From a phage: DNA of 64,000 nucleotides. The notes under the pieces are model-generated. The model was not told the DNA's origin and did not search any database. It was given only the letters and a program-made list of their open reading frames with translations. A program made the position numbers and the translations under genes. The stretch is taken from assembly GCA_037431425.1 (NCBI GenBank), contig GCA_037431425.1_4129.1. One strand, written 5' to 3'. Shown piece by piece: positions 9,650-62,298 of this stretch (position 1 is its first letter; each line of letters opens with the position of its first letter).

Positions 9650-9833
<184 letters not shown>

Positions 9834-11429: not shown

Positions 11430-11846
11430 ATGAACAGAGAAGTTATTAGTTTAATGGATGAGTATATAAACCAAACGCATCGTTTGATATTTTTAAATGA
11501 ATTCGAGTCCAGAACAACGTATCATTCTGGAGAATATGAGATAACGACTGGATCATTTCTGAACGGATATATGGAGTTTTTTGAACAAAGCGATAATGTT
11601 TTTATTTCCATATCTGAAAAACATGGTGATGGTTGTGTTATTGATGTATGGCCCAATAAAGTAGAGATTGATACTTCACACAAAATTGTAATTGATGTAG
11701 ACGAATCATTATATGATTTAACTGAAGATATGTATATGCAGCTAAATTTTGTATATGACCTAACTAATATAAGTTATTGTAATTTAAGTAAATTATTTTA
11801 TATTTGTGGTGTATTACATAATAATACACAACAAAATAAAGGATAA
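11430..11846 (+). CDS. divergent member of EE-x-FQ family, 138 aa
   Basis: GAGGA SD favours ATG 11430; motif TEDMYMQLNFVYDLTNISY. Confidence 0.65.
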   Translation: MNREVISLMDEYINQTHRLIFLNEFESRTTYHSGEYEITTGSFLNGYMEFFEQSDNVFISISEKHGDGCVIDVWPNKVEIDTSHKIVIDVDESLYDLTEDMYMQLNFVYDLTNISYCNLSKLFYICGVLHNNTQQNKG

Positions 11847-14816: not shown

Positions 14817-15971
14817 TTATGCGTTATAACCAACAATAACGACAGTACAATCAATTGGATTTACTACTTTAACAGTTACGTTATCATCTTCATCAAACTG
14901 TATTTCGCTATGAACTACCTGTTTGGTTGAAGAATACAATTGAACTTGTGGTAATACTTTACCATGTTCAGTAACTGGAATAGATAGTGAATACATAGAG
15001 TCTTCATCTTCTACCCAATCACTCTCCACATATTCCTTATGGAATGGGGTGGTGTGTAGTGTTTTGCCCATAATACGCAAAGACACAGGCGAATTATCGC
15101 TTTGGTTCACTGTAATATCACCTTTATCATCAACAGACATATCAACACCTATTTGGTGTAAATCATCGCTATATGCTTGGAGAACTAATTTATTACCACG
15201 TTTATGAACATCATATGGTACGACCGCAGAAAAAACTCCATCACCTGATGGTTGGAATTGCGTCAATTGAACCGGAGTAACATAATCAACATCCTCGCCG
15301 TGTTCTTGAACATCAAATTCAACAACTTTAGTGTTATAATATGGGGAAGTTAATGTGGCAGTACCTTTGCCTTTTTGTTGAATAGCATCTACTTGAATCG
15401 TAAACTCATCATCAACAATTTGTTTAGTGACGTATTCTTTCCCTTCTGGTAATACAAATTTAATTTCCATGCCATTGGTATCAATTTCAGAACCAGCATT
15501 GAATAGTTTACCACTAATTGATTTATCACCAACAAATACTGGTGAAATAATAATATTATCAATATCCCTATCAATAATACTACATTCTGGGGTATACATA
15601 TTATAAAGAGATTTTGAATTTCCTAAAATAGTTTTGTGTAGTAGGAATTTATAAACAAATCCAGTATCTGCCTCTTGCTGCTCATTAGTGTGTCCACGAA
15701 CAAAGAAACTGTTTCTATTAATTTCACTTAATAGTTCATCATTAGATTTACTATAATTTAGCAGATAACCTTTATTATCTTTAGTTGTTAGTTGGACTTT
15801 ACGGTAAATTATATTAGTTCTTGGGTCAACCAAATCATATAATTTGTGACTTCTCTGACGATAGATTCTAATATTTTTAAGTTTAGTTCCGTCATTAAGT
15901 ATCGCTCCATCAACGACATAACCACATTCGCCAAACTTGTATCTACCTGCTGACGCTATAGACCTTGACAT
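14817..15971 (-). CDS. hypothetical protein, 384 aa (beta-rich, possibly structural)
   Basis: lone minus-strand gene in a plus-strand block; AAGGAAGG SD; own upstream TATAAT. Confidence 0.8.
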   Translation of the reverse strand: MSRSIASAGRYKFGECGYVVDGAILNDGTKLKNIRIYRQRSHKLYDLVDPRTNIIYRKVQLTTKDNKGYLLNYSKSNDELLSEINRNSFFVRGHTNEQQEADTGFVYKFLLHKTILGNSKSLYNMYTPECSIIDRDIDNIIISPVFVGDKSISGKLFNAGSEIDTNGMEIKFVLPEGKEYVTKQIVDDEFTIQVDAIQQKGKGTATLTSPYYNTKVVEFDVQEHGEDVDYVTPVQLTQFQPSGDGVFSAVVPYDVHKRGNKLVLQAYSDDLHQIGVDMSVDDKGDITVNQSDNSPVSLRIMGKTLHTTPFHKEYVESDWVEDEDSMYSLSIPVTEHGKVLPQVQLYSSTKQVVHSEIQFDEDDNVTVKVVNPIDCTVVIVGYNA

Positions 15972-16029
15972 TTATCCTTCCTTTGTTATAATTATTATAA
16001 CATATTTATTGTATAGATTAAAAAAATGA

Positions 16030-20760: not shown

Positions 20761-21726
20761 GTGAAAAAACTTGATTTGAATACAATTGCAGATGAAGTTC
20801 TGGATGAATGCTTTGGTAATGAAGAAGTGAATACGCTGGATGCGTTAGAACCAGTTCAAGAAAAAGATAACATTGACGAGAAAAATAATGGTAATTTCAA
20901 GTTTAATATTAGTCTTAAGCGACCAGCAAATGTAACAAATGAAGATATTATTCGTGATATTCAAGCAGGTATTAACGTAAAGAAAAATACTGAACTATTA
21001 GTTCGTTATAATTACGGTTTGATTATTGATGTTGCAAGTAAATGCACGTGTTATATTCCATTTGAAGATAAGATTTCATATGGCATTGAGGGATTCATGC
21101 GAGCATTAAAAACATTTGACCTTAGTAAGAATGTAAAGTTCGCTACGTATGCATCGTCAAGTATCTATATGACTGTATACAATGAAAGCTCAGATGCTAA
21201 TCATCTGGTCCACTTCCCTCGTTACATGAGTGTTAATAAGATACAAGTGAAACGCTTCTGTCATAATTATGAGCGTCAGCATGGTTGTCGTCCTACACCT
21301 GAAATTATTTCTGAAGAGACTGGTATTGAAATCCAGCACGTTAAGAATTGTTTATTATTCCAAAGTGAATATACTTCACTGGATGCACCATTGGATGGTG
21401 TTTCTGATGGGACGATGAGTGATATTCTGCATTCATCTGAAGGTGATTATAATCTTAATGTTGACAGTATTCGTGCACCGTTGCGTTATACCATCAACGA
21501 ACTAACTAATGAGTTGAGTGCTAAGGAATGTGAGATTATTCAACGTGTTCATGGATTAGGTGAATTTAATCCTGAAACACTACGTGAAATTGCTGATAGT
21601 GGTTTTATTGATGACAATGGTAAGTGTGTAAAATCCAGATCTTCGGTTCATCGTAAATACAGTGATGCTCTTAAGAAACTCAAGAAATTAGTGCTCGCTA
21701 AAGGGTACGAATACGAAGATTTCTAA
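20761..21726 (+). CDS. sigma-70 family RNA polymerase sigma factor, 321 aa
   Basis: GTG start with GGAGA SD; region 2 (YGIEGFMRALKTFDLSKNVKFATYASSSIYMTV), region 3 and region 4 (TLREIAD..VHRKYSDALKKLK) recognisable. Confidence 0.8.
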   Translation: MKKLDLNTIADEVLDECFGNEEVNTLDALEPVQEKDNIDEKNNGNFKFNISLKRPANVTNEDIIRDIQAGINVKKNTELLVRYNYGLIIDVASKCTCYIPFEDKISYGIEGFMRALKTFDLSKNVKFATYASSSIYMTVYNESSDANHLVHFPRYMSVNKIQVKRFCHNYERQHGCRPTPEIISEETGIEIQHVKNCLLFQSEYTSLDAPLDGVSDGTMSDILHSSEGDYNLNVDSIRAPLRYTINELTNELSAKECEIIQRVHGLGEFNPETLREIADSGFIDDNGKCVKSRSSVHRKYSDALKKLKKLVLAKGYEYEDF

Positions 21727-21761: not shown

Positions 21762-21789
21762 GGGACACAGAATAAATATATGATATAAT
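21762..21789 (+). promoter_or_regulatory. promoter GGGACA-N16-TATAAT (same architecture as tRNA promoter at 6115)
   Basis: read directly; ..TGATATAAT as at 6131-6142. Confidence 0.5.
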
Positions 21790-32150: not shown

Positions 32151-32263
32151 TTTAACTTTGGGACAAACCTTCCTATAATGATATAATTTTTTTGTCAGTT
32201 TATTTAAATGACATATGAAATATAAATATTATTGTAAAGTTTATCTCTTATAGGAGTTATAAA

Positions 32264-32647
32264 ATGGTTGATAAATGGAATAAGAAAGAACCATCTCATG
32301 ATGTGGATATTTCTGACCTAGATAATGAACATAAACACAAGTACCTAGATTCACTAGGACTACTAAAGCCGGACCAAAGTATTGCACATGATCGTCCTTC
32401 ACGTGAAAAAGCATTCAGTCTGGAATCTCTAGGTCATGAGCTAAATCGTGTGTTTGAAGAACACCCAATCTATGTACGTGATATTATTGAGAAACTTAAA
32501 GTAACTCCTAAAGAGCACTTTAAAGCAACTGTACACTCTGCATTCAATGCATTACATGAAGCACTTAAGAAAACTCACAACCTTCGTAAGATTCATGATG
32601 ATATTGTAAATGCAATTGAAAGTGAAAAGCATAAGTTCAAAAAGTAA
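32264..32647 (+). CDS. charged helical protein, 127 aa
   Basis: AGGAG SD; shares YLDSLGLL and VPKE modules with 32736 gene. Confidence 0.75.
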   Translation: MVDKWNKKEPSHDVDISDLDNEHKHKYLDSLGLLKPDQSIAHDRPSREKAFSLESLGHELNRVFEEHPIYVRDIIEKLKVTPKEHFKATVHSAFNALHEALKKTHNLRKIHDDIVNAIESEKHKFKK

Positions 32648-32654: not shown

Positions 32655-32698
32655 GGTTGACTTCGGTCAGCCTTTTTTTATATACTATAAATATAATC
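32655..32698 (+). promoter_or_regulatory. terminator-promoter cassette copy 2
   Basis: GGTTGAC-TTCG-GTCAGCC plus T7; TATACT/TATAAT downstream. Confidence 0.7.
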
Positions 32699-32735
32699 AT
32701 AGAGAAAAAACATGAAATCTATGGAGAGAAATCAA

Positions 32736-47249: not shown

Positions 47250-47260
47250 TTTAAAATATT

Positions 47261-47287
47261 AAAGCCAGTTCTCTCGTACTGGCTTTA
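47261..47287. terminator. bidirectional terminator between convergent genes
   Basis: AAAGCCAGT..TACTGGCTTT. Confidence 0.7.
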
Positions 47288-47290
47288 ATA

Positions 47291-48436
47291 TTATTTTTTC
47301 CAAGGAAGTAACGAAGTTGGTATTTTGATAGGTATATTTGATGAAACAACATCAGGAAAATTTGCATCCCCACAAACATACAAATTATCGTCTTCGTCTA
47401 TCAATAATATATAGTTGTAACTTCTACAAAACCCATTTAAACCTCTTCCCTCTAATGCAGATAAATTTATTTCAGTGAATTGTGTTATATATGTTTCATT
47501 TGAACCAACACCACATTGACCATTAGCATTTATACCACAAGTAAGCAATTTATTATTGTTTTGAATTATACATGATGGTCCAGCAAGGTTTGTACCTAGT
47601 TCACCTACAACGTTGACCTCACCTTGTAATGATAAATTTGGAATCACTGTACTCATTGGGACACGAGATGTATTTCCAACACCTGCTTGTCCTGAACCAT
47701 TAGTGGATGCTACTTTAACAGTACCGTCATTAAGAAAAATATAAGATGTTTCGATTGTATTAACTGCTTGAGTAGCTGATGTTATTGACGTATCCTGTTT
47801 GAATTTGAGTACATTTGTTGTTGTCGAACCAGAGATATATGTAGCACCTGCGTACCAATATGTTCCATCCTGGAGTACTAAACCAGTACTTCTAATTGAA
47901 CACCCAGCACTTCGAACATTTTCTATATGACTATATGTAAAGGTTGATACAATTGAAGATTCACCATTACCAAATACCCCACCAGTACCTGCACCACAGA
48001 AAAACCATTTACCGTTTTTCAAAAATACACGCATACAAGCAGAAATAACCACACTATCAATATCACTTGCAGTTACACCAAAATCGGTAAAGAAATGAGT
48101 TATATCAATCCAATTGCCACCAGTATTTGATGGGAGATGTGGAATTACAACTCTAGTCCCTGTGTACCAGATTGTATCATCATCTTTAATAACAAGCGTA
48201 CCTTGAACACCCCCCCAATACCTGGTTACATTAGTATTAACAAGTGTCCACTCATTAGATGATTCCGTTGAGCCATTACCACCTTGACCATATGATGATG
48301 AACCGCACCAGTATAAATTGCCATTTTTATTTAAATAAAATTTTGCATCAGCCGAACATTGTAATCTGTATTTGAATACAGTTTTTGGTGCTGGTGCAAT
48401 ATTTGCATACTTAATCATTCTTCCAAAAGGTAACAT
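47291..48436 (-). CDS. RCC1-like repeat beta-propeller protein, 381 aa
   Basis: MLPFGRMIKYANIAP N-terminus; repeats such as LYWCGSSSYGQGGNG, LLTCGINANGQCGVG. Confidence 0.8.
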   Translation of the reverse strand: MLPFGRMIKYANIAPAPKTVFKYRLQCSADAKFYLNKNGNLYWCGSSSYGQGGNGSTESSNEWTLVNTNVTRYWGGVQGTLVIKDDDTIWYTGTRVVIPHLPSNTGGNWIDITHFFTDFGVTASDIDSVVISACMRVFLKNGKWFFCGAGTGGVFGNGESSIVSTFTYSHIENVRSAGCSIRSTGLVLQDGTYWYAGATYISGSTTTNVLKFKQDTSITSATQAVNTIETSYIFLNDGTVKVASTNGSGQAGVGNTSRVPMSTVIPNLSLQGEVNVVGELGTNLAGPSCIIQNNNKLLTCGINANGQCGVGSNETYITQFTEINLSALEGRGLNGFCRSYNYILLIDEDDNLYVCGDANFPDVVSSNIPIKIPTSLLPWKK

Positions 48437-48478
48437 AATTTCTCTCCCTCATTCATTATACTGTATTTAACCCAATTA
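48437..48478 (-). promoter_or_regulatory. conserved leader/promoter box of RCC1-like genes
   Basis: minus strand reads ..AAATACAGTATAATGAATGAGGGAGAGAAATTATG. Confidence 0.5.
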
Positions 48479-48480
48479 AG

Positions 48481-48503
48481 AAAAGCCAGTATCAAGTACT
48501 GGT
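48481..48503 (-). terminator. rho-independent terminator
   Basis: minus strand ACCAGTACTTGATACTGGC plus TTTT. Confidence 0.7.
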
Positions 48504-48509
48504 ATTTTA

Positions 48510-49859
48510 TTATTGTAATGGAATTTCAGTGAGTGTTTTATATGTACTTCCGTTATACACCCCTCTCCAATATACTTTACCATCAGTACTAACCACTAAT
48601 AATCCATATGTTGTAAACCCAAGAGTACCACCAACATACATAGCATCTTTGATTCTAATACCAATGTCTTCATATGTAAATGACGCGACTGCACCCGCTT
48701 GCCATGAAGGACTAGCGTAGTAATCACTATAAACACCATGTGCTTTATATATTGATGTTGTTCCTGGTTCAAAAATGACAGTTCCACAGTAGTTCATTCG
48801 TATTTTAGTACTGGATGAAGTTGGTACATTTATACCTACATCATCTTTTATCCCTGTGGTTAGGACGTTAAAACCACCCGCCACACGGTTGACGTCATTC
48901 GCACCGATTAAATACATACCAACGTTGTAGCCCATATAAAACACACTAGAGCTTCCATTCCAGAAAGAAAAACCACCACCATTCCCACAGCGATATAGTT
49001 GTGAATTTGAGCAGTACATCATACCTTCGTTTGTCGCATCAAATTCATCTGCTTTTCCTATTGTAGCTACAGTAGTCCAAGTTTTAATTACTTGGTTTGT
49101 ACTAGCTGGTGTTTGTATACCATATCGTATATTATACCCTTTACCGACTATTGTACCATCTTCTAATTTGGCATAAAGTACAGGTCTATTACCAACAAAA
49201 TACATATTATTGTGTGACATGTCTATTGTGCATCTTAATGAAACTACTTTTTGTTTCAATTGATTATCTTTAGTAAAAGAAGTAAAGTAGTAATCTGATG
49301 TTGAGTTGTTTATTAAACCTTGTATTGACAACCCCATATACCAGATTTCTCCCTTACTATTCAAAGCTGCCAAAATACAACTATATTTTGAAGTGTATGT
49401 TGGGTTTACTGAAGTTGCTGGTCCTTTGTCATATCCACCACAGAATACCATCTCCACAACTTCACCTACGTTAGCAAAATAAGAAGATACATTGATAAAA
49501 CCATTTGTTATAAAAGGTGCTGTATTTATACTTGAATGTGTGAATATCCCATTTGCATATACACCACAAAAATGATATGAACCATCATTATCTTGGACTA
49601 TTATTCCATTTGATAGTAACCAAAAATTGTTTACATTTTTTCTTACTAATTCGATTCCTGCCCCATTAGTTGGCGTTATACCAAAAGAAACATATTTTGT
49701 TTGACCAATTCCATATAAATTTCCATTTGATGCTAATATTGCACCAAACCAATTACCACCACCATTCTTGTTATGACCCATACCTATAGAATCAAATTTC
49801 TTAACAGTAGGAGCTTGTACTTTGTTCCCATAATTCACCATTCTTCCAAAAGGTAACAT
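48510..49859 (-). CDS. divergent RCC1-like repeat protein, 449 aa
   Basis: same MLPFGRMVNYGN N-terminus; degenerate G-rich blade repeats. Confidence 0.75.
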   Translation of the reverse strand: MLPFGRMVNYGNKVQAPTVKKFDSIGMGHNKNGGGNWFGAILASNGNLYGIGQTKYVSFGITPTNGAGIELVRKNVNNFWLLSNGIIVQDNDGSYHFCGVYANGIFTHSSINTAPFITNGFINVSSYFANVGEVVEMVFCGGYDKGPATSVNPTYTSKYSCILAALNSKGEIWYMGLSIQGLINNSTSDYYFTSFTKDNQLKQKVVSLRCTIDMSHNNMYFVGNRPVLYAKLEDGTIVGKGYNIRYGIQTPASTNQVIKTWTTVATIGKADEFDATNEGMMYCSNSQLYRCGNGGGFSFWNGSSSVFYMGYNVGMYLIGANDVNRVAGGFNVLTTGIKDDVGINVPTSSSTKIRMNYCGTVIFEPGTTSIYKAHGVYSDYYASPSWQAGAVASFTYEDIGIRIKDAMYVGGTLGFTTYGLLVVSTDGKVYWRGVYNGSTYKTLTEIPLQ

Positions 49860-49900
49860 ATTTCCCTCCTTTATTCATTATACTATATTTAATACTAAAA
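49860..49900 (-). promoter_or_regulatory. conserved leader/promoter box
   Basis: minus strand GTATTAAATATAGTATAATGAATAAAGGAGGGAAATATG; TATAAT at 49877-49882; no -35. Confidence 0.55.
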
Positions 49901-49925
49901 GAAAAAGCCAGTACAGAGTACTGGC
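49901..49925 (-). terminator. rho-independent terminator
   Basis: GCCAGTAC..AGTACTGGC plus T-run on minus strand. Confidence 0.75.
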
Positions 49926-49931
49926 ATTATT

Positions 49932-51083
49932 TTAAATTGGTGAATCTTCAACAAATATAGTACTAGCAGTACCACCTGATACTGGGTTAGTACCACTTGA
50001 ATATATTTTGTTTCCATCTGTCATATATGTTTTACCATAGCAACTTTGGATTTTAACATCTTTGAAATTCAAATCAGGAGTAATAGATTTAGTGTAAGTT
50101 AATACGTTAGTAGTTGAACCTGTACTTAATTGTCCATAGTATGAAGTTGCAGAGTTATTACCAGCAACGTATACGCCAGTATCAGTAATAACAAAGTTCG
50201 AGTAATATCCGTACCCATATCCTATATCTAATATATTTCCTTGTGGTTGATTTACCACTGCTGTTGTCAATATTTGGGTTGTAGCCCCAGTACCAGTCGC
50301 TGCCTGACCATATGTTTGGTCACCACCTGTGTACACTGAAACAACTGACGTGCTTTTGTTTCTTGCAATACCTTGCACCATTCCATTAATTGTACTTATA
50401 AATGCAATAGTGTTAACAGTTGCTGGTAATCTGGATGACAATGTGAAGAATTTATAAGAAGTAGGACCGTCAGTGTTCCCATAAACTTCACCTGTGTAAT
50501 ATAATCTACCACTTTCAGCAATAAATGAACACATGTTTATACCTGCAATAATCCTTTTCGGTATCGCACCAGTTGGTATAATTGATTGTACTAAAGTAGA
50601 AAAACTACTAGTATAAGAATAATTACCAAGCTGTCCTCTTGTGTTATAACCACCACACCAAATGGTCCCATTACTCATAAGTATTGAAATGAAGTTATTT
50701 CCTAGTGATATTTCTGTAATTGTTCCTTGTGATTTGACTTGGTTAATAACGGTTTGCATAGAAGTCCATGCATTAACAGATGACGTACCCATACACACAT
50801 TGTATTGTTGTCCTGTGTATTGATATGTCCCATCTGACTTGTGAATCATTGTAGCATACTGACCACACCATACATCAGTGACATCAGATGCAGTTACAGT
50901 CCATGATGATCTGGCTATATTGTCACCTAAACCCAACTGACCATTTGAATTGTTACCACGGGTGTATAACTTACCATTACTACCCAATACCATAACCCAG
51001 TTATACCCTGCAACTAATTTTTTAATGGCAGCAGGGGATGGTGCAACATTCCCATAATCAAACATTCTAACAAAAGGTAACAT
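49932..51083 (-). CDS. RCC1-like repeat beta-propeller protein, 383 aa
   Basis: LYTRGNNSNGQLGLGDN and IWCGGYNTRGQLGN are canonical RCC1 blade motifs. Confidence 0.85.
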   Translation of the reverse strand: MLPFVRMFDYGNVAPSPAAIKKLVAGYNWVMVLGSNGKLYTRGNNSNGQLGLGDNIARSSWTVTASDVTDVWCGQYATMIHKSDGTYQYTGQQYNVCMGTSSVNAWTSMQTVINQVKSQGTITEISLGNNFISILMSNGTIWCGGYNTRGQLGNYSYTSSFSTLVQSIIPTGAIPKRIIAGINMCSFIAESGRLYYTGEVYGNTDGPTSYKFFTLSSRLPATVNTIAFISTINGMVQGIARNKSTSVVSVYTGGDQTYGQAATGTGATTQILTTAVVNQPQGNILDIGYGYGYYSNFVITDTGVYVAGNNSATSYYGQLSTGSTTNVLTYTKSITPDLNFKDVKIQSCYGKTYMTDGNKIYSSGTNPVSGGTASTIFVEDSPI

Positions 51084-51124
51084 ATTTCCCTCCTTTATTC
51101 ATTATACTATATTTAATACTAAAA
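51084..51124 (-). promoter_or_regulatory. conserved leader/promoter box
   Basis: identical to the 49860 copy. Confidence 0.55.
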
Positions 51125-51125
51125 G

Positions 51126-51150
51126 AAAAAGCCAGTACTTGAGTACTGGC
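51126..51150 (-). terminator. rho-independent terminator
   Basis: GCCAGTACTTGAGTACTGGC (two AGTACT) with flanking A and T runs. Confidence 0.75.
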
Positions 51151-51157
51151 TTTCTTA

Positions 51158-52348
51158 TTACAATTTTCTAGGTGTATCCAGAACATATCTATTTGTTTTA
51201 GGGCCACCATCATCATAAGTTCCGGTTGAATATATATTTTTCATATCAGCAGTTAGGAAAGTACGCAACGAACCGCGATATATTTTTATTTTATCATACA
51301 TAGAATATGTTATTTCTGACGGCAATGGACATGCAGTAAATTTACCAATGGTAGCATCATAACCAACACCCAATGTACCAGCATAACTACTCGCATTTAA
51401 ACCAGTTGCATATACACCTGCACTCGTAACTAGTATACTAGATTGTGCTGGGTATCCAGTATGGATTGAATAATAAGTACCAGGTGGCAATGTGGCACTA
51501 TTATTTCCTAAAACTCCATTAACATTGCTAGATGTAGTTTTATTTCCCCATGCTCCATTATTAGCTAATCCACCAACTAGAAACTGACGTGCTCCTGTAC
51601 TTGGATTCTCTACTAAAGCACTGACAGCACCAAATGAACAAACAGTATATTGTAATGTTTTTGTATATGTGGTACTTGGCTGATATAAAGTATATTCATT
51701 AAATGGTGTCCATGTGGTACTAGTACTTATGCCAGATGTAATACCACCAATATATAAATTATTTTGTTTATCAAACAACATTACACAGTTATATGTTGAC
51801 ATTATTTGTGCAATATCAACATCTGGTGTTACAGCTTTAACAAATGAGCCATCGGTTATTTGTTGAGTTTTTCCAGTACCATCTGCGAATTGTCTAGCAC
51901 TATTCCACCCTGTACTCCATATTGTATTATTATCCATTAAGAAAGTAAACCACGTAGTACCTGCATACATTTGTTTAATTGAAGTACTTGAACTTTGTTT
52001 GTACAAATTTTCAATATATTGGTTATAACTTAAAAACGTAGTAGTACTAGTTTCTAAACCAATATGACTACCATATCCACAATAAAAATAATTTAAGTCA
52101 TTATCTTGAACTAACAAAGTTCCTTGTGTCATCCAGCAATCTTTGATATTTTCTCTAATTAATGTCCACGACCTTACTGCATTATTATTTCCTCTACCAA
52201 ACTTCCCCCAACTATTACTGCCTCGTGCGTATAGTTGACCGTCGGTATAAAGTACAACAACCTCAGTATCAGTTGGTATTATTTTCTTAATTTGAAGTGG
52301 GACGGGTACAATATTCCCGTACTTAACTATTCTTCCAAAAGGTAACAT
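51158..52348 (-). CDS. RCC1-like repeat beta-propeller protein, 396 aa
   Basis: MLPFGRIVKYGNIVP; LYARGSNSWGKFGRGNN. Confidence 0.8.
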   Translation of the reverse strand: MLPFGRIVKYGNIVPVPLQIKKIIPTDTEVVVLYTDGQLYARGSNSWGKFGRGNNNAVRSWTLIRENIKDCWMTQGTLLVQDNDLNYFYCGYGSHIGLETSTTTFLSYNQYIENLYKQSSSTSIKQMYAGTTWFTFLMDNNTIWSTGWNSARQFADGTGKTQQITDGSFVKAVTPDVDIAQIMSTYNCVMLFDKQNNLYIGGITSGISTSTTWTPFNEYTLYQPSTTYTKTLQYTVCSFGAVSALVENPSTGARQFLVGGLANNGAWGNKTTSSNVNGVLGNNSATLPPGTYYSIHTGYPAQSSILVTSAGVYATGLNASSYAGTLGVGYDATIGKFTACPLPSEITYSMYDKIKIYRGSLRTFLTADMKNIYSTGTYDDGGPKTNRYVLDTPRKL

Positions 52349-52386
52349 ATCCCCTCCTTATTCATTATACTATATTTAATCAAAAA
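52349..52386 (-). promoter_or_regulatory. conserved leader/promoter box
   Basis: minus strand ..AAATATAGTATAATGAATAAGGAGGGGATATG. Confidence 0.55.
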
Positions 52387-52387
52387 T

Positions 52388-52410
52388 AAAAGCCAGTATC
52401 AAGTACTGGC
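52388..52410 (-). terminator. rho-independent terminator
   Basis: GCCAGTATCAAGTACTGGC. Confidence 0.7.
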
Positions 52411-52424
52411 ATAGTTTTATAATA

Positions 52425-53531
52425 TTATTTCGGCATCGTAATTGCAGACCATGAATTTGTAGTAATTGGACCTGGTATGTACACTAAAGAACCACATGCA
52501 TAAATTTGTCTATTCCCATCATACACAACACTAAAGTTAGTACAAGTAAACAATGACGAATTTAATGGATTGTAAGTATCTAATGTTAGTGTATTCACCC
52601 ACTTATTTGAACCTAGACCACCTGACCTACCAAATGCACCAGTACTGTATATCTTACCTTCAGTTGTTGCATATATATTAACATATGAAGTTGAACTGGA
52701 TTTAGCTATTTTATGTATCTTACTATCAATAGCACTGGAGTTAAATGTAAAAGGATATATTTCTACGTTAGTTGATGAACCATTACCGAGTTGACCAGAA
52801 TACTGCAAGCCAGCGACGTATGTACCACCACCTGAATATGCTATAGTACTAGTACTGTTACCTCCCATTATTTTAACACTAGTTAAACGACTTACTAAAG
52901 TAGTGTACTGACCTTTACTAACACCTAGTGAACCATAACTACTAGTACCACATCCAATAAGGTTACCGTTGGATGTTAAGATTAATGTGTTGTTTTGTGT
53001 ACCATATATATCAGCAACTTCATTTGTACCAGTATTCAGTACTAACACAAAAGCACTCTGTGAATTAGGATATCCACCACCGAGTGAATAGTTACTGTTC
53101 ATGCCTCTTCCATAAACCTTTGTACCACTAGCATCTACGTAGTGCATCGTATCTGAACCAATTGATATCATTTTAATATTAGATATGTGTGGAAATGAAG
53201 AAGTAACATCTAAACCACCCAAGGGGATTGCAGTATTACCCGTACCTAACTGAGAAGTAACTCCGTGCATTCTGAACTCTTCTCCTTTGAGATACAGAAG
53301 ATTGTACCCACCAGCCCATGCATCAGAAACACCCTCTGCAACTAATATCCAATTATTTTTTTCCGCTGTACCAACGGCATTCAACTGCCAATATGAATTA
53401 TCTCCACATCCATATAATGTACCATCACTATATAGTACGTACAAATTATTGGTTCCACAAAATACTTTCTTGATCGTTATACCTTCTGGAGCTATATTTC
53501 CATAGGTCATTATTCTTGCAAAAGGTAACAT
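52425..53531 (-). CDS. RCC1-like repeat beta-propeller protein, 368 aa
   Basis: MLPFARIMTYGNIAP; LYGCGDNSYWQLN, LIGCGTSSYGSLGV. Confidence 0.8.
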   Translation of the reverse strand: MLPFARIMTYGNIAPEGITIKKVFCGTNNLYVLYSDGTLYGCGDNSYWQLNAVGTAEKNNWILVAEGVSDAWAGGYNLLYLKGEEFRMHGVTSQLGTGNTAIPLGGLDVTSSFPHISNIKMISIGSDTMHYVDASGTKVYGRGMNSNYSLGGGYPNSQSAFVLVLNTGTNEVADIYGTQNNTLILTSNGNLIGCGTSSYGSLGVSKGQYTTLVSRLTSVKIMGGNSTSTIAYSGGGTYVAGLQYSGQLGNGSSTNVEIYPFTFNSSAIDSKIHKIAKSSSTSYVNIYATTEGKIYSTGAFGRSGGLGSNKWVNTLTLDTYNPLNSSLFTCTNFSVVYDGNRQIYACGSLVYIPGPITTNSWSAITMPK

Positions 53532-53570
53532 ATCCCCTCCTTATTCATTATACTATATTTAATACAAATA
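53532..53570 (-). promoter_or_regulatory. conserved leader/promoter box
   Basis: same box as other copies. Confidence 0.55.
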
Positions 53571-53572
53571 AG

Positions 53573-53595
53573 AAAAGCCAGTATCAAGTACTGGC
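53573..53595 (-). terminator. rho-independent terminator
   Basis: GCCAGTATCAAGTACTGGC. Confidence 0.7.
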
Positions 53596-53601
53596 CTATA
53601 T

Positions 53602-54771
53602 TTAAACTGGCGAATCTAATATAAATTCTAAACTACTAATGCCACCATATGTGACATCTGTTCCCGTGCTATATACAAAATTACCATCAGTTATATAAGT
53701 TCGGTTATAACTACCTGCCATCTGTGACTTACTATAATCAAACCCATCAGGTACGATTGCTTTGGTATATACTAATGCATTAGTAGATGTACCAATACCT
53801 AACATACCAGCTTGTGTAGATTGATTGTAGCCGCAACAATATATACCATCTGTTGTAGCAATAACTTGGTTATAATATGAAGTATTGTTAGCAATGCTTA
53901 CTACATCACCAGGTGGCATTAGTGATGCTGTTTGTACCTCAAATGCTCTATAATCTTTGAGAGAACCATCTTTCCCATCTGCTTGTGCACCAAATATTCT
54001 TGAACCACCATTTGCGATGATAGTTTTACCAGTAGGATCAGTGCCTATTGCCATTGCCATTGAAGTACCATTATTCACATAGTACTTTATATTAATTGTA
54101 TTACTTAAGCTGGTAGGAGCACCATAATATATATTATATAACTTACTTCCTGAACTTGTAACTGCATTGACTCTTCCTGTATAAAATAACCATCCTTGGT
54201 TTGTAACATAACCGTGCATTAAATTACTTGCAAACAATTTAACAGGTAATTGATTTGCTACGGTAGGAACAGTACTTTTGACGAATCTACCAGAAACATA
54301 GTTAATTGTTGTTCCATCACCCAACTGACCATCCGACCCTACTCCAGTACTCCATATTGTTTGGTCTGATAGTAACACACTTGTAGTCTGATAACTAATG
54401 GCTATATCTAATATTGGTAATGTTAATGTATTGAATATAGGCATAGCAGATGTCCATATTGATACTCCTGACCCTTTCATACCAACAGTTGTTGAACTTC
54501 CACTGTACCATATTTCATTATTGCTTTTCTTAACAACTATCGACGTGGCTCCCATCCAAAAATCTTCAACACCAGAAGTACTAAAAGTCCATGTAGTAAC
54601 AGTATTTTTGTGACCTAAACCCAAAATACCATATGCATTATCACCACGCACATATAAATCACCACTGTTTGTTAAAACAGCAACATTATCGTTGTTAGCA
54701 AGTATTTTTTTAATATTTGGTTTAGCAGGTGCAATATTCCCGTACTTAACCATCCTCGCAAAAGGTAACAA
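53602..54771 (-). CDS. RCC1-like repeat beta-propeller protein, 389 aa
   Basis: TTG start with GGAGA SD and non-conserved leader; LYVRGDNAYGILGLGHK, IWSTGVGSDGQLGDG. Confidence 0.8.
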   Translation of the reverse strand: MLPFARMVKYGNIAPAKPNIKKILANNDNVAVLTNSGDLYVRGDNAYGILGLGHKNTVTTWTFSTSGVEDFWMGATSIVVKKSNNEIWYSGSSTTVGMKGSGVSIWTSAMPIFNTLTLPILDIAISYQTTSVLLSDQTIWSTGVGSDGQLGDGTTINYVSGRFVKSTVPTVANQLPVKLFASNLMHGYVTNQGWLFYTGRVNAVTSSGSKLYNIYYGAPTSLSNTINIKYYVNNGTSMAMAIGTDPTGKTIIANGGSRIFGAQADGKDGSLKDYRAFEVQTASLMPPGDVVSIANNTSYYNQVIATTDGIYCCGYNQSTQAGMLGIGTSTNALVYTKAIVPDGFDYSKSQMAGSYNRTYITDGNFVYSTGTDVTYGGISSLEFILDSPV

Positions 54772-54810
54772 AATTAAATCTCCAAAATTAAAATAATTAT
54801 ATAGTATTTA

Positions 54811-54843
54811 CAAAAATACCAGTACATATTTCAGTACTGGTAT
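54811..54843 (-). terminator. rho-independent terminator
   Basis: ACCAGTAC-ATATTTCA-GTACTGGT. Confidence 0.65.
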
Positions 54844-54847
54844 ATTA

Positions 54848-55969
54848 TTAAAAGGGCAACGGTAACTCAGTAAAAGAACTTACGTCCGGTAAACCATACA
54901 TTGAATTAGCATCACCACAGTAATACCACTTCGTAGAATCATGTACCACCGATAAACGCAGTGCACATAACACTTCCTGTATGTCATTAAACACCATCGG
55001 GACTAACTCATATGTATCTGCAAATGAAGATACACCACCACTCGCATGAAAAGTATTTGTCCCAGCATAAAATAACTGATTAGTGTTCTTACCCACAGCA
55101 AATGTAATCAAATTCCCATCATTCTCCCATAAAGAAGAAAACTTATCAACACTACCAGAAAGCTCTGTGTAAGTACTCGTAATGGCATTAACCGCCGCCG
55201 CATTACCCATCTGTTTATTCAAGTTCTGCCCAGCAATAAAATATCTCGTTCGTGCACTAGAATCAGTATATAATAACCCAGTGTTCGTGGTCATCATTCC
55301 AATGTCCTTAATCGTCATACCAGGCTGTGAATAACTTAGATACGAAGTTAAATTAACATTATTACCCAACGAACCGTTAGAACTCATGCCACAACGATGT
55401 AATATACCACTTGTATCAACGTAGATAGTACTAACACCACTCGTATACAACTCTTGTACATTATTCGCAATAAACACAGCAGTCGCCTTATTACTAACCC
55501 CACCAAATGATAGGTTATTATCAAATCCCTTAGCGTATAATTGATTATTAGTAGTCAATAATCCAATCGTGTAATAAGACATTTTCATATCCCTTACTGT
55601 ACTCAAATCTACTGCCCCAAATTGATACGTAACATCTGTCCATTTGAAAATCTGTGCACTACCAACACCACCCGTTTCAAACCATTTGTCACCACAGTAC
55701 AATATGCGATTATCCTTAGTAAAGATAACTGTTAACGCTCCACTACCACACGCAAACTTTACATCACTTCTAACCTTCGTCCAATCACGTACATAGGTAG
55801 TGGTGTTATTACCTATACCTAACTTGCCATAACGGTTATAACCACGCACCCATAAATCACCACTCTTAGTAATTAATAGTAATGCGTCTCCTGTACTTAT
55901 TATTCGAAATCCCGATCTAGGATCAGGTACAATATTCCCGTACTTAACCATTCTCCCAAAAGGTAACAT
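54848..55969 (-). CDS. RCC1-like repeat beta-propeller protein, 373 aa
   Basis: MLPFGRMVKYGNIVP; LWVRGYNRYGKLGIGNN. Confidence 0.8.
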   Translation of the reverse strand: MLPFGRMVKYGNIVPDPRSGFRIISTGDALLLITKSGDLWVRGYNRYGKLGIGNNTTTYVRDWTKVRSDVKFACGSGALTVIFTKDNRILYCGDKWFETGGVGSAQIFKWTDVTYQFGAVDLSTVRDMKMSYYTIGLLTTNNQLYAKGFDNNLSFGGVSNKATAVFIANNVQELYTSGVSTIYVDTSGILHRCGMSSNGSLGNNVNLTSYLSYSQPGMTIKDIGMMTTNTGLLYTDSSARTRYFIAGQNLNKQMGNAAAVNAITSTYTELSGSVDKFSSLWENDGNLITFAVGKNTNQLFYAGTNTFHASGGVSSFADTYELVPMVFNDIQEVLCALRLSVVHDSTKWYYCGDANSMYGLPDVSSFTELPLPF

Positions 55970-56008
55970 AATTCCCTCCTTTATTCATTATATCATATTT
56001 ACCCAAAA
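55970..56008 (-). promoter_or_regulatory. conserved leader/promoter box (first gene of array)
   Basis: minus strand ..AAATATGATATAATGAATAAAGGAGGGAATTATG. Confidence 0.55.
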
Positions 56009-56013
56009 AACAC

Positions 56014-56042
56014 TTGACACCCTTTCAGTACTGTTGTACGAT
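56014..56042 (+). promoter_or_regulatory. promoter TTGACA-N17-TACGAT with AGTACT in spacer
   Basis: divergent from the RCC1 array; drives the small-gene array. Confidence 0.6.
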
Positions 56043-56067
56043 AGAAGGAATATTAGGAGAACTACAC

Positions 56068-60326: not shown

Positions 60327-60340
60327 GAAACTACACAGGC

Positions 60341-60423
60341 GAATTGCTAAAATTCAGCCTGCTATACGTCTGAATTGTTAAAATTCAGCCTGCTATACGT
60401 CTGAATTGTTAAAATTCAGCCTG
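60341..60423. repeat. 31-bp direct tandem repeat, 2.7 copies
   Basis: GAATTG(C/T)TAAAATTCAGCCTGCTATACGTCT at 60341, 60372, and partial at 60403; each unit contains the inverted repeat TGAATT..AATTCA. Confidence 0.9.
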
Positions 60424-60467
60424 GACAAATGCGATCACCAGGATTCTCTCCAGGCTAAACACCGTAG

Positions 60468-60534
60468 TCATAAGTAATCATAAGTAATCATATATAAACA
60501 TTTATATGAGCATTTATAAGCATTTATAAGCACC
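60468..60534. repeat. short tandem decamers
   Basis: CATAAGTAAT x2.5, then GCATTTATAA x2, each block flanked by ACCGTAG. Confidence 0.75.
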
Positions 60535-61027
60535 GTAGAATCACAGAATGATTATATATGATTCAGTACTGCCCCAAAAGTATTCAGTACTGAAGAATTA
60601 CCCCTGAATGATTCAGTACTGATATGCCACTAAGTAGGCAGAGGAAGTCTGCCGTACTTTGTAGTTTCCAAGCTCCTTTTCCATTTTGCAAATTACATCA
60701 AATGTAATCAAAAGTAATCACGTAATGATTAGTACTGAAATATTAGTTTCATCTTTTTTCAAATACCTTTTTACCCTTCGGGGTAAATGTATTTTTACCC
60801 ATTTACCTTTGGGGTAAAATCCCATTACCCCTTGAGGCTCCAGCAAAAAGTTGGAAAGTACTCCATCCTAAATCTCGATCCTAAAAATTTTGGAGTACCT
60901 ATGAAATAAAAGTTGGATCTTCGAAAGTTGAAATTTACGTTGGGACGTTTATGATTTGTGGGATATAATGATGTTTGTAGTCGGGTAGTTCTCAAGAATA
61001 TCAGTACTGAATGGTGAAAGAAAGTTA

Positions 61028-61055
61028 TTGACATTATGATTCAGTACTGTATAAT
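61028..61055 (+). promoter_or_regulatory. promoter TTGACA-N16-TATAAT with AGTACT in spacer, inside ORF-free region
   Basis: read directly; downstream has GNRA hairpin CTGTC-GTGA-GACAG and no ORF. Confidence 0.6.
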
Positions 61056-61435
61056 GTTCTACATAGAGAGATGAGTTGCTGCGAACAATTCATTTACTCT
61101 ACCTCCTGTCGTGAGACAGTACAGAAAAGATAGTTCCTCCTGTGGTGGTACATCTTTTTGAACCTCATATGAAAATCGTAATAACAGTACTGGTATTAAC
61201 AGAATGGTATCAGTACTGACTTTAATCTAATACATTATACCACCAGCTTGTGCTGGTGGATTCCCTCTAACAGTATTCAGTACTACATGATAGTCTTCAT
61301 CCTCCTAGGGTAACATAGTGAGGGCTATTGTGGGAGTACTGAATACTCCTTTCAAAAGATAGAATAATGGTATAGTACCGACGGATTTTGGGCGTAGTTA
61401 CCCTGGGTGTATTTTGGACGTAGATATGTCTAGCC

Positions 61436-61578
61436 CTCCAGAAGTCTGGAAGTAAAGATGGCTATCTATCTAGACGGCTAAACGGCTAGATTTCTAGATG
61501 GCTGTATGGCTAGACGTTTGGATGGCTAAACGGCTAAACGGCTAGATGGTTACACGTCTGGAAGTATAGACGGCTAAA
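61436..61578. repeat. iteron block: 8 GGCTA cores bracketed by direct repeats GTCTGGAAGTA
   Basis: GGCTA at 61460, 61476, 61484, 61508, 61524, 61532, 61540, 61572 (consensus ACGGCTAAA/ACGGCTAGA); GTCTGGAAGTA at 61444-61454 and 61556-61566. Confidence 0.85.
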
Positions 61579-61927
61579 TCAAAATTTTTATTTTGTTTTT
61601 CCAATAGTTCCCCTACCGCGTGAGGATATTTTTTCCCCGCAGTATCTGGAGTTAGATTTTTCTGAATCTGGAATCATTATCTAATAAACTGGGGGCAATG
61701 TCAACCGCCTGGATGAATATTTTTAAAAAATAATCTAGTACTAAATTTTGGGCGTAACTATGCACCCGGTGGGCTTGAGTCTTTCTCGACTTGATGAAAT
61801 AATTATATCAGTACTGAAAAAATAAAGCAATACCCTAAACGCAAAAAAAATTTAATTAATTTGCTTGCTATTCTGGGCCGTACTATGGTACTATTAATTC
61901 AGTACTGAGAAAGTGCTTTTACCTGCT

Positions 61928-61999
61928 AGGGTGCGGGAGTGTATCCTTTTTAAATTTTATGAATTTTGGGCAGATCTCCGCACCCTGTGGGTTAGTGCC
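61928..61999. repeat. GC-rich dyad element (long hairpin), copy A
   Basis: AGGGTGCGGGAG ... CTCCGCACCCT arms around an AT-rich 45-nt core; shares the 16-mer GGTGCGGGAGTGTATC with the 63898 copy. Confidence 0.7.
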
Positions 62000-62210
62000 T
62001 TGTGTCCGGCTTATGTAGTAATTATACGCTTTTTCAGTACTGAGTCAATACCTAAAAACAAAATAATTGAAAATAATTTAACGCGTTTAAACGGCCCGTA
62101 AAGCCCTGGAATGATTAGAATGGTGCAAATGTATAGCTTAGGTGTAATATCTCGTTAGAATGCGACTGAGGCCGTTTTACGGGGTATAGGGATGATTTAG
62201 TGGATTGATT

Positions 62211-62298
62211 CAGTACTGAATAATAGTACTCCTATATAGAAAGATAGTTCCCCTGGATGGTTGCAGTACTGAATAATAGTACTCCTATATAGAAAGAA
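62211..62298. repeat. 35-bp direct repeat x2
   Basis: CAGTACTGAATAATAGTACTCCTATATAGAAAGA at 62211 and 62264. Confidence 0.85.

What the first reader, a model, noticed from the sequence alone, without database searches (positions are those of the whole stretch)
48437..56008. Conserved -35-less promoter and short-leader box upstream of RCC1-like genes, possibly read by the phage sigma factor
Six of the seven genes are preceded on the minus strand by (G)TATTAAATATAGTATAATGAATAAAGGAGGGAAATATG. This is a TATAAT-like element embedded in a TAAATATAG context reminiscent of T4 late TATAAATA. There is no TTGACA at -35, because the upstream sequence is the previous terminator. The leader is only about 10 nt, and the AAGGAGGG SD is unusually strong.

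This differs clearly from the TTGACA-N16-TATAAT promoters of the plus-strand genes, which suggests a distinct temporal class. That class could depend on the phage-encoded sigma factor at 20761 or on an activator. The sixth gene (53602-54771) lacks the box and uses TTG.
Basis: partly seen in the sequence, partly recalled or inferred. Interest (0 to 1): 0.55.

Follow-up and report, generated by a model that had tools for sequence, protein, structure and literature searches.

The report
Late-promoter junctions between RCC1-like gene cassettes
The repeated box in front of each RCC1-like gene of this jumbo coliphage is real, but it is most likely an ordinary T4-style late promoter (core TAAATA) fused to the previous gene's terminator, and whole gene cassettes are gained and lost at this ~105-bp junction.

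Summary
The window comes from an Asteriusvirus-type jumbo coliphage (121Q/phAPEC6 group). The box is real and non-random. It also precedes the only other minus-strand gene, 14817-15971, which is an unrelated virion protein.

The evidence points instead to TAAATA, the core of the T4-type late promoter TATAAATA:
- TAAATA is intact in 43 of 43 junctions across six phages, while TATAAT is mutated in four.
- TAAATA is the only element conserved upstream of gp077 orthologues in four phage lineages.
- It lies 13-70 nt upstream of 29 of 54 non-RCC1 virion genes of phAPEC6.
- It is the most avoided A4T2 hexamer in the genome.

These phages encode a gp55-like late sigma outside the window. The sigma at 20761 is a full sigma-70 type with region 4, so it is an unlikely reader of a promoter with no -35 element. 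The leader would then be about 19-28 nt, not 10.

The junction runs from the terminator through the promoter and SD to the first 13 codons. It behaves like the T4 PeSL elements: two cassette indels relative to phage ph0011 break inside it. No transcription start sites have been mapped.

The parts
54848..55969 (-). RCC1-like gene A (373 aa), first cassette of the array
   Evidence: ORF. Pfam RCC1-like domain WD40_RLD, E = 1e-16.
55987..56001 (-). Core TAAATAtgaTATAAT upstream of A. TAAATA is at 55996-56001. There is no terminator upstream, because this region is shared with a divergent plus-strand early promoter (TTGACA at 56014).
53602..54771 (-). RCC1-like gene B (389 aa, TTG start)
   Evidence: The TTG aligns with the ATG of the paralogues.
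54796..54810 (-). Core TAAATActaTATAAT upstream of B, with a different leader and a GGAG SD at 54780-54783
54816..54843 (-). Terminator hairpin after gene A
   Evidence: dG -15.2 kcal/mol, z = -5.4.
52425..53531 (-). RCC1-like gene C (368 aa). This cassette is absent from phage ph0011.
53532..53597 (-). Junction B/C: hairpin 53575-53597, core 53547-53561 (TAAATA at 53556-53561), SD AAGGAGGGG 53534-53542
51158..52348 (-). RCC1-like gene D (396 aa)
52349..52410 (-). Junction C/D: hairpin 52392-52410, core 52364-52378, SD 52351-52359
49932..51083 (-). RCC1-like gene E (383 aa). This cassette is absent from phage ph0011.
51084..51155 (-). Junction D/E: hairpin 51126-51155 (dG -18 kcal/mol), core 51101-51115, SD AAGGAGGG 51088-51095
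48510..49859 (-). RCC1-array gene F (449 aa). It has no Pfam hit but shares the conserved N-terminus.
49860..49925 (-). Junction E/F: hairpin 49907-49925, core 49877-49891, SD 49864-49871
47291..48436 (-). RCC1-like gene G (381 aa), last cassette of the array
48437..48503 (-). Junction F/G: hairpin 48485-48503, core TAAATAcagTATAAT 48455-48469, SD GGAG 48444-48447
47255..47292 (.). Bidirectional terminator hairpin that closes the array against the convergent plus-strand genes
   Evidence: dG -19.1 kcal/mol, z = -8.5.
15994..16008 (-). Eighth copy of the core, TAAATAtgtTATAAT, upstream of an unrelated gene
14817..15971 (-). Virion structural protein gene, homologue of phAPEC6 gp077. It is not RCC1-like.
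   Evidence: phrog_10468, E = 3e-162. hhalign probability 0.1% against the RCC1 paralogues. gp077 was found in the phAPEC6 virion by mass spectrometry.
32221..32228 (+). TATAAATA, 35 nt upstream of ORF 32264-32647 (homologue of the virion protein gp037c). Same promoter class, on the plus strand.
32686..32693 (+). TATAAATA upstream of ORF 32712-33983 (homologue of the virion protein gp035c)
20761..21726 (+). Sigma-70-family sigma factor with regions 2, 3 and 4.

Best explanation
Each RCC1-like gene is a self-contained late-expression cassette. The junction in front of it contains, in order:
1. the intrinsic terminator of the preceding cassette;
2. a T4-type late promoter whose recognition element is TAAATA, the -11 to -6 part of T4's TATAAATA, with no -35 element;
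3. an AT-rich initiation region that happens to read TATAAT and probably contains the start site;
4. a leader of about 20 nt with a strong Shine-Dalgarno sequence;
5. the first 13 codons, encoding the conserved N-terminus MLPFGRMVKYGNI.

The promoter is most likely read by host core RNA polymerase carrying the phage's gp55-family late sigma, which is encoded outside this window. It is unlikely to be read by the sigma-70-family factor at 20761. This would place the RCC1-like virion proteins in the late class together with capsid and tail genes.

The roughly 105-nt junction is repeated 4-16 times per genome. It therefore also serves as a substrate for homologous recombination, through which whole cassettes are inserted, deleted and swapped between related phages.

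Shown here: the motif statistics, the conservation pattern, the link to virion genes, the presence of a gp55-like gene in relatives, and the indel breakpoints. Inferred: the start site, the sigma that reads the promoter, and late timing.
For: 1. The core TAAATA-N3-TATAAT has 8 hits in the window against 0.12 expected. All lie in sense orientation upstream of the 8 minus-strand genes, one of which is not a paralogue. In the 352.6-kb phAPEC6 genome it has 15 hits: 13 at RCC1 genes, plus gp077 and gp274c. gp077, gp274c and 8 RCC1-array proteins (6 of them directly behind a core copy) were found in the virion by mass spectrometry.
2. (TA)TAAATA lies upstream of the genes for the major capsid protein, scaffold, sheath, neck, baseplate and fibres. 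It is found 13-70 nt upstream of 29 of 54 non-RCC1 virion genes, against 1.7% of random windows (p about 3e-37).
3. TAAATA is the rarest of the 15 hexamers of composition A4T2. The window has 54 copies (next rarest 115) and phAPEC6 has 230 (next rarest 598). TATAAT is not depleted.
4. Phylogenetic footprints. Upstream of gp077 orthologues in Asteriusvirus, Munch, GAP32, CBB, XbC2 and fHe-Yen9-04, TAAATA is conserved in 9 of 9 and TATAAT in only 4 of 9. Across 43 RCC1 junctions, TAAATA is intact in 43 and TATAAT in 39, one of them at N5 spacing. The variants include TATAAC.
5. In Munch and fENko-Kae01 the core is kept while the leader and SD differ in both sequence and length.
6. phAPEC6 gp237c matches the late-sigma families phrog_12791 and phrog_234. 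It has distant tblastn hits to gp55 of cyanophages, lies next to gp46/47-like genes, and is present in all 33 Escherichia records of the group.
7. T4 late promoters are defined as an 8-bp TATA box about one helical turn upstream of the start site, with AT-rich sequence downstream and no -35 element. Positions -13/-12 vary in phage Aeh1 (PMC2988020). An ATAAATA late motif was predicted for the related phages CBB and GAP32 (PMC5259590).
8. A [CT]ATA element lies 2-5 nt downstream of TAAATA in 36% of putative late promoters, against 8% of control TAAATA sites (p = 5e-6). TATAAT fits that initiation region.
9. Recombination. Cassettes C and E are absent from ph0011, which is 97% identical overall. 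The alignment blocks overlap by 111 and 103 nt, which places the breakpoints inside the junction repeat. The array holds 5, 7, at least 9 and 13 or more genes in four phages.
Against: - No transcription start site or RNA-seq data exist for any Asteriusvirus.
- TATAAT is far better conserved in the RCC1 junctions (39 of 43, including the Munch lineage) than a mere AT-rich initiation region would require, so it may have a function of its own.
- The base before TAAATA is T or G in the RCC1 boxes. It is A in 53% of the other putative late promoters and T in only 9%.
- TAAATA ends 24-27 nt before the ATG in six of the seven boxes (33 nt at gene B), which is at the short end of the 29-50 nt usual for other late genes.
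- No gp33 or gp45 homologues were found in the related phage CBB by its authors. I did not test for them here.
- The late sigma gene is not in the window. Its presence in this phage is inferred from relatives.
- Junction copies are related by descent or gene conversion, so the copy counts overstate the number of independent observations.
Confidence: 0.62

Rival explanations
1. TATAAT is the -10 element of a promoter with no -35 element, read by the phage sigma-70-family factor at 20761 (or with an activator). The leader would be about 10 nt and begin at the SD.
For: - TATAAT is a perfect -10 hexamer, intact in 39 of 43 junctions and kept at fixed N3 spacing from TAAATA across two phage lineages.
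- The sigma gene lies in the same early region of the genome.
- No experimental data exclude this model.
Against: - Natural variants include TATAAC, which loses the T at the last position of the hexamer, and GATGAT, in otherwise intact cassettes.
- TATAAT is absent from 5 of 9 orthologous gp077 promoters.
- There is no TGn extended -10 element, except in one non-conserved copy: TGT in the window but CGT in phAPEC6.
- The 20761 protein aligns along the full length of RpoD_Cterm and RpoS, including region 4, which implies use of a -35 element.
- A separate class with a -35 element, GGGACA-N16-17-TGATATAAT, is a better candidate for this sigma. It precedes the SSB gene and the late-sigma gene.
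Confidence: 0.12
2. An overlapping dual promoter. TAAATA would be read by the gp55-like sigma late in infection, and TATAAT by a sigma-70-type holoenzyme (host or phage) to give weak earlier or basal expression. The 15-mer would be conserved as a unit for that reason.
For: Both hexamers and their spacing are nearly invariant, while the N3 spacer and the flanks vary. The 15-mer recurs at gp077 and gp274c.
Against: A -10 hexamer alone, with no -35 element and no TG extension, is expected to be very weak (established knowledge of sigma-70 promoters). TATAAT is lost in several functional-looking copies and orthologues.
Confidence: 0.15
3. The box has no promoter function. It would be conserved only because the junction is homogenised by duplication or gene conversion, and the array would be transcribed by read-through from one upstream promoter.
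For: - The whole junction, including synonymous sites, is conserved. Codon pairs that encode the same amino acid use the same codon in 77% of cases in codons 1-13, against 48% in the rest of the genes.
- Some array genes in phAPEC6 (gp003, gp009) and in Munch lack a box and are translationally coupled or operonic.
Against: - Every internal junction begins with a terminator-like hairpin and T-run, so downstream genes need re-initiation.
- The core occurs upstream of non-paralogous genes.
- TAAATA is conserved in orthologous promoters whose flanks have fully diverged.
- Among 24 distinct junction variants, substitutions hit the N3 spacer and the flanks but not TAAATA.
Confidence: 0.06

Closest known systems
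T4-type late promoters (TATAAATA, read by gp55 with gp33 and the gp45 clamp)
   Same: - A short A/T box at about -10, no -35 element, and AT-rich sequence downstream.
- They precede virion genes.
- A gp55-family sigma is encoded by the phage group.
- The two 5' positions of the box vary in relatives such as Aeh1.
   Different: - Only the 6-nt TAAATA core is constant here (7 nt, ATAAATA, in about half of the sites).
- The RCC1 copies have T or G before the core and an unusually fixed TATAAT 3 nt downstream.
- Neither start sites nor dependence on a gp33/clamp system is known for this group.
Predicted late motif ATAAATA of the Rak2-like phages CBB and GAP32 (PMC5259590)
   Same: Same motif, the same association with structural genes, and the same broad phage group.
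   Different: That prediction was made for Mimasvirus phages. It was not linked to RCC1 arrays, terminator fusions, motif avoidance or cassette recombination. I found no published promoter analysis for Asteriusvirus.
PeSL elements (promoter-early stem-loops) of T4-like phages (PMC2839356, PMC4122927)
   Same: A short composite of a terminator stem-loop and a promoter, repeated between small expression cassettes. Insertions, deletions and replacements between closely related phages have their breakpoints in the repeat.
   Different: - PeSLs carry strong sigma-70 early promoters and flank unrelated ORFans in hyperplastic regions.
- Here the promoter is of the late type.
- The repeat continues through the SD and 13 codons.
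- The cassettes are paralogous virion-protein genes.
- Mini-circle formation was not tested.
- True PeSL-like early elements (GGTTGACTTCGGTCAGCC-Tn-TATAAT) also occur on the plus strand of this window.
Sigma-70 extended -10 promoters, which lack a -35 element
   Same: Recognition is confined to the -10 region.
   Different: The defining TGn motif upstream of TATAAT is absent from the RCC1 boxes, which have TAG, CAG, CTA or TGA in that position.

Membership tests
T4-type late promoter | TATAAATA-like box about one helical turn upstream of the start site | tested here: inconclusive
   TAAATA (6 of the 8 positions) is invariant in all copies. The two 5' positions differ (AT, GG, TG, GT). The distance to the start site is unknown because no TSS data exist.
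T4-type late promoter | No conserved -35 element | tested here: met
   The upstream sequence is the terminator T-run, with only 2-3 of 6 matches to TTGACA. The flanks are not conserved in the gp077 orthologues.
T4-type late promoter | AT-rich segment immediately downstream of the box | tested here: met
   The segment reads TAGTATAATGAATAA. [CT]ATA is enriched 2-5 nt downstream of TAAATA in putative late promoters (36% against 8%).
T4-type late promoter | Precedes late (virion) genes across the genome | tested here: met
   29 of 54 non-RCC1 virion genes identified by mass spectrometry in phAPEC6 carry it (p about 3e-37). In the window it occurs only at homologues of virion proteins, plus one doubtful site.
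T4-type late promoter | A gp55-family sigma encoded by the phage | tested here: met
   phAPEC6 gp237c matches phrog_12791 and phrog_234 and has tblastn hits to cyanophage gp55. It is present in all Asteriusvirus records. It is not in this window, so its presence in this phage is inferred.
T4-type late promoter | Activation by gp33 and the sliding clamp, coupled to replication | not tested
   The CBB authors reported no gp33 or gp45 homologues. I did not search for them.
T4-type late promoter | Late timing and initiation at the box | not testable with these tools
   This needs a time-course of RNA 5'-end mapping. No published data were found.
PeSL (promoter-early stem-loop) cassette | Composite of a terminator stem-loop and a promoter, repeated between genes | tested here: met
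   Hairpin, T-run and promoter core are present at six internal junctions. The junction occurs at 402 places in 42 phage records.
PeSL (promoter-early stem-loop) cassette | The promoter is a strong sigma-70 early promoter (-35, -10 and an AT-rich upstream region) | tested here: not met
   There is no -35 element, and the core matches the late class.
PeSL (promoter-early stem-loop) cassette | Indels and replacements between close relatives have breakpoints in the repeat | tested here: met
   Comparing the window with ph0011, two single-cassette indels show 111-nt and 103-nt block overlaps at the junction. Homology with UE-S1 ends 35 nt into gene B and resumes at the hairpin before gene D.
PeSL (promoter-early stem-loop) cassette | Formation of excised mini-circles during infection | not testable with these tools
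   This requires inverse PCR on infected cells.
Sigma-70 -35/-10 promoter | TTGACA-like hexamer 16-18 nt upstream of TATAAT | tested here: not met
   The consensus scan does not report the boxes as promoter-like. Manual inspection gives 2-3 of 6 matches.
Extended -10 promoter | TGn immediately upstream of TATAAT | tested here: not met
   The spacer triplets are TAG, CAG, CTA, TGA, TAT and TAA. TGT occurs only at 15994-16008, and it is CGT in phAPEC6.

The most novel reading that the evidence does not exclude
The ~105-nt junction is not just a promoter that happens to be repeated. It would be a selected 'late PeSL': a portable module made of terminator, late promoter, SD and the codons for a conserved N-terminal anchor. 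This module would let jumbo phages of the 121Q and Munch groups shuffle, amplify and exchange hypervariable beta-propeller virion proteins by homologous recombination. It would act as a cassette system for diversifying virion-surface (possibly 'hair' or adhesin) proteins. The invariant TAAATA-N3-TATAAT would form a specialised subclass of late promoter.
Probability: 0.3. Interest if true: 0.55.

Novelty: new variant of a known kind. Interest (0 to 1): 0.36.

Why it matters
- It gives the first explicit, testable promoter map for the Asteriusvirus jumbo coliphages. Three classes are proposed: early (TTGACA/TATAAT), a candidate middle class (GGGACA-N17-TGATATAAT), and late (TAAATA).
- It corrects which element and which sigma probably drive the RCC1-like virion genes.
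- It shows that the copy number and content of this hypervariable virion-protein array change by recombination at a defined junction. This matters for annotation, for engineering phages of this group that are candidates for therapy, and for understanding how jumbo phages diversify virion components.
- The mechanism itself, T4-style late transcription with PeSL-like shuffling, is an extension of known biology and not a new principle.

Tried and rejected
- I searched phAPEC6 and the window for the 'middle' motif reported for CBB and GAP32 (TGAAACG -35 with a TATA -10). Only 4 and 1 chance-like hits were found, so the motif is not used here in that form.
- I scanned IMG/VR for TTAAATANNNTATAATGAATAA. 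Only the 121Q genome holds multiple copies. The other 26 are single hits in unrelated AT-rich contigs, including giant-virus bins, and I treat them as chance.
- I tested whether gene 14817-15971 is a hidden RCC1 paralogue, which would have made its box non-independent. hhalign gave a probability of 0.1%, so it is not.
- I looked for published TSS, RNA-seq or promoter data on Asteriusvirus and Rak2-like phages (phAPEC6, Sharanji, fEgEco12, RaK2, PA5oct). Only the in-silico predictions for CBB and the sigma-70-type promoters of PA5oct turned up.
- Rfam at gathering thresholds found only the six tRNAs and nothing at the junctions.
- Pfam and NCBIfam gave no hit for the late sigma gp237c. It was identified through PHROGs and tblastn.
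- I considered the terminator T-run as an UP element. It lies at about -20 to -35 relative to TATAAT, not at -40 to -60, so I rejected this.

Full report
**Source and setting**

The window is 33% G+C. Its closest relative is Escherichia phage ph0011, at 97% identity, and it also matches the 121Q, PBECO4 and phAPEC6 group, genus Asteriusvirus, jumbo myoviruses of about 350 kb. Almost all genes are small and lie on the plus strand. Only eight genes lie on the minus strand. Seven are RCC1-like paralogues at 47291-55969, here called A to G, and the eighth is at 14817-15971. Six of the seven paralogues hit the Pfam RCC1 or RCC1-like domain families, and PDB sequence matches are to the RPGR, RCC1 and UVR8 propellers.

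**Checking the observation**

The 21-mer TAAATATAGTATAATGAATAA has four exact copies and two copies with two mismatches. All six lie upstream of array genes, against 0.03 expected, and there are no others in the 64 kb. An alignment of the seven upstream regions shows a conserved block. It starts at a hairpin (CCAGTAC-loop-GTACTGG followed by a T-run; dG -6.6 to -18 kcal/mol), runs through the box and an AAGGAGGG Shine-Dalgarno sequence, and continues into the coding sequence.

The proteins are only 20-25% identical overall, yet all begin MLPF(G/A)RM.KYGN. Nucleotide identity is 81% in codons 1-13 and about 40% afterwards. Codon pairs that encode the same amino acid use the same codon in 77% of cases in codons 1-13, against 48% elsewhere.
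- The 'sixth gene' keeps a 15-nt core, TAAATActaTATAAT, and differs only in its leader.
- The pattern TAAATA-N3-TATAAT has eight exact hits in the window against 0.12 expected. The eighth lies upstream of the unrelated minus-strand gene 14817-15971.
- The conserved unit extends about 40 nt into each gene.

The plus strand carries many perfect TTGACA-N16-18-TATAAT promoters.

**Which genes carry the element**

I assembled the complete phAPEC6 genome from eight fetched pieces. It has 15 exact copies of the 15-mer, all in sense orientation upstream of genes. Thirteen are in the RCC1 array, one is at gp077 (the homologue of window gene 14817-15971) and one is at gp274c. The published virion proteome of phAPEC6 (PMC7247149, Table 1) lists gp003, 005, 006, 007, 009, 010, 549 and 551, which are RCC1-like, and also gp077 and gp274c. 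PHROGs classes the window's 14817-15971 product as a virion structural protein.

**Which part of the box matters**

The 110 nt upstream of all 62 virion genes show (TA)TAAATA upstream of most genes that have their own intergenic region. These include the genes for the major capsid protein, scaffold, sheath, neck, baseplate wedge and fibres. Five lines of evidence point to TAAATA as the constrained element:
- **Association with virion genes.** 29 of 54 non-RCC1 virion genes have TAAATA 13-70 nt upstream, against 1.7% of random windows of equal length (p about 3e-37).
- **Avoidance elsewhere.** TAAATA is the rarest of the 15 hexamers of composition A4T2. The window has 54 copies against 115 or more for the others, and phAPEC6 has 230 against 598 or more. 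This is about half the Markov expectation. TATAAT is not depleted. A minimal promoter signal is expected to be avoided in this way.
- **Distribution in the window.** Intergenic TAAATA in promoter configuration occurs only at the eight minus-strand genes, at the plus-strand homologues of the virion proteins gp037c and gp035c (as TATAAATA), and at one doubtful site.
- **Orthologue footprint.** Upstream of gp077 orthologues in nine phages from four lineages, TAAATA is the only conserved block (9 of 9, 20-31 nt before the ATG). TATAAT is present in four and replaced by GATATA, GAAATA, TACAAT or TATAAG in the rest.
- **Natural variants of the junction.** Among 43 RCC1 junctions from six phages, TAAATA is intact in all. 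TATAAT is changed to GATGAT, TATGAT, TACAAT or TATAAC in four, and sits at N5 instead of N3 in one. In the more distant Salmonella phage Munch and Klebsiella phage fENko-Kae01, the core is kept but the leader and SD differ in sequence and length.

**Mechanism**

T4 late promoters are an 8-bp TATA box about one helical turn upstream of the start site. They have an AT-rich segment downstream and no -35 element, and are read by gp55. In phage Aeh1 the first two positions of the box differ (PMC2988020). An ATAAATA late motif was already predicted for the related phages CBB and GAP32, which also encode a gp55-like sigma (PMC5259590). phAPEC6 gp237c is such a protein. It matches phrog_12791 and phrog_234, has tblastn hits to cyanophage gp55, lies next to gp46/47-like genes, and is present in all 33 Escherichia records of the group.

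The sigma at 20761 aligns along the full length of RpoD_Cterm and RpoS, including region 4. Such a sigma is expected to use a -35 element. A third promoter family with a distinct -35 element, GGGACA-N16-17-TGATATAAT, is a more natural target for it. It has 3 copies in the window against 0.06 expected and about 17 in phAPEC6, including upstream of the SSB gene and of the late-sigma gene itself. Assigning that family to this sigma is inference.

If TAAATA occupies -11 to -6, the start site falls inside 'TATAAT' and the leaders are 19-28 nt. This removes the apparent oddity of a 10-nt leader. A [CT]ATA element 2-5 nt downstream of TAAATA is enriched in putative late promoters (36% against 8%, p = 5e-6), so TATAAT fits the initiation region.

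TATAAT is nevertheless more uniform in the RCC1 junctions than this model requires. An overlapping weak sigma-70-type promoter therefore remains possible.

**The junction as a recombination module**

ph0011 has five cassettes where the window has seven, and C and E are the ones missing. The three collinear alignment blocks overlap by 111 and 103 nt in ph0011, so both breakpoints lie inside the junction repeat. Homology with UE-S1 ends 35 nt into gene B and resumes at the hairpin before gene D, with different cassettes in between. The junction occurs at 402 places in 42 phage records, 1-16 per genome. A published comparison of the close relatives fEgEco12 and Ecwhy_1 also singles out 'chromosome condensation regulators' among their most divergent proteins.

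This is the behaviour described for the PeSL elements of T4-like phages (PMC2839356, PMC4122927). There are three differences: the promoter here is of the late type, the repeat includes the SD and 13 codons, and the cassettes are paralogous virion genes.

**Limits**

No start sites or expression kinetics are available for this phage group. The late sigma is outside the window. Junction copies are not independent observations. I did not search for gp33 or sliding-clamp homologues. The assignment of sigma factors to promoter classes is inference from family knowledge and motif distribution.

**Verdict**

It is probably wrong on the -10 element, the leader length and the sigma. The feature is best described as a T4-type late promoter embedded in a PeSL-like junction repeat. 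It is a variant of known kinds and of moderate interest.

Noticed in passing
window, 43 sites (e.g. 7267, 7647, 8406, 24153, 56026, 61042); cluster at 60564-62271: The 8-bp palindrome CAGTACTG (extended consensus ttCAGTACTGa) occurs 43 times against 0.72 expected. It sits in the spacer of a family of early promoters (TTGAC[AT]-N8-9-ttCAGTACTG-(a)TATAAT) and inside coding regions. About a dozen copies lie in an ORF-poor stretch at 60.5-62.3 kb. The RCC1 terminator stems (CCAGTAC/GTACTGG) look like split versions of it. Its function is unknown.
   Followed up: partly
window 6115-6142, 21762-21789, 32160-32187 (+); phAPEC6 (L003-L009), about 17 sites: A third promoter-like family, GGGACA-N16-17-(TG)ATATAAT, has 3 copies in the window against 0.06 expected. 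In phAPEC6 it precedes the genes for SSB, gp205c and the gp55-like late sigma, among others. It is a candidate middle class and a plausible target of the sigma-70-family factor at 20761.
   Followed up: partly
window 29863, 32657, 33995, 38907, 42311, 42882 (+): Repeated element GGTTGACTTCGGTCAGCC-T-run-TATAAT. It is a terminator hairpin whose 5' arm carries the -35 hexamer of a sigma-70 promoter, which is a PeSL-like early promoter/terminator composite on the plus strand.
   Followed up: no
window and phAPEC6, genome-wide: TAAATA is the most avoided A4T2 hexamer: 54 copies against 115-175 for the other fourteen in the window, and 230 against 598-790 in phAPEC6. TATAAT is not depleted.
   Followed up: yes
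window 6153-9988 (+): A cluster of six tRNA genes (Ser-tga, Arg-tct, Ser-gct, Met-cat, Asn-gtt, Thr-tgt), interleaved with consensus promoters that contain CAGTACTG and with a GGGACA-type promoter.
   Followed up: no
window 47291-55969; L011 (Munch), L012 (fENko-Kae01): All array proteins share a conserved N-terminal peptide, MLPF(G/A)RM.KYGN in Asteriusvirus and MIPF(A/T)RIL.YGN in Munch-like phages, ahead of propellers that are only 20-25% identical. This suggests a common anchoring or assembly function for otherwise hypervariable virion proteins. One paralogue also hits a PHROG 'tail protein' family.
   Followed up: no
L011 (Munch) 109-11739; phAPEC6 gp003, gp009: Not all RCC1-like genes have the junction. 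In Munch several are translationally coupled, with overlapping stop and start codons. phAPEC6 gp003 and gp009 also lack the box, yet both were detected in the virion, so box-less members are expressed from an upstream cassette's promoter.
   Followed up: partly
window 55970-56060: The first cassette has no upstream terminator. Its late-type core sits back to back with a divergent plus-strand early promoter (TTGACAccctttCAGTACTGttgTACGAT at 56014), forming a compact bidirectional control region.
   Followed up: no
window 60327-61912: A stretch of about 1.6 kb with no plus-strand ORF of 60 aa or more and slightly higher G+C (0.36-0.38). It is dense in CAGTACTG copies and contains a perfect sigma-70 promoter at 61028. 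No Rfam family matches it.
   Followed up: no
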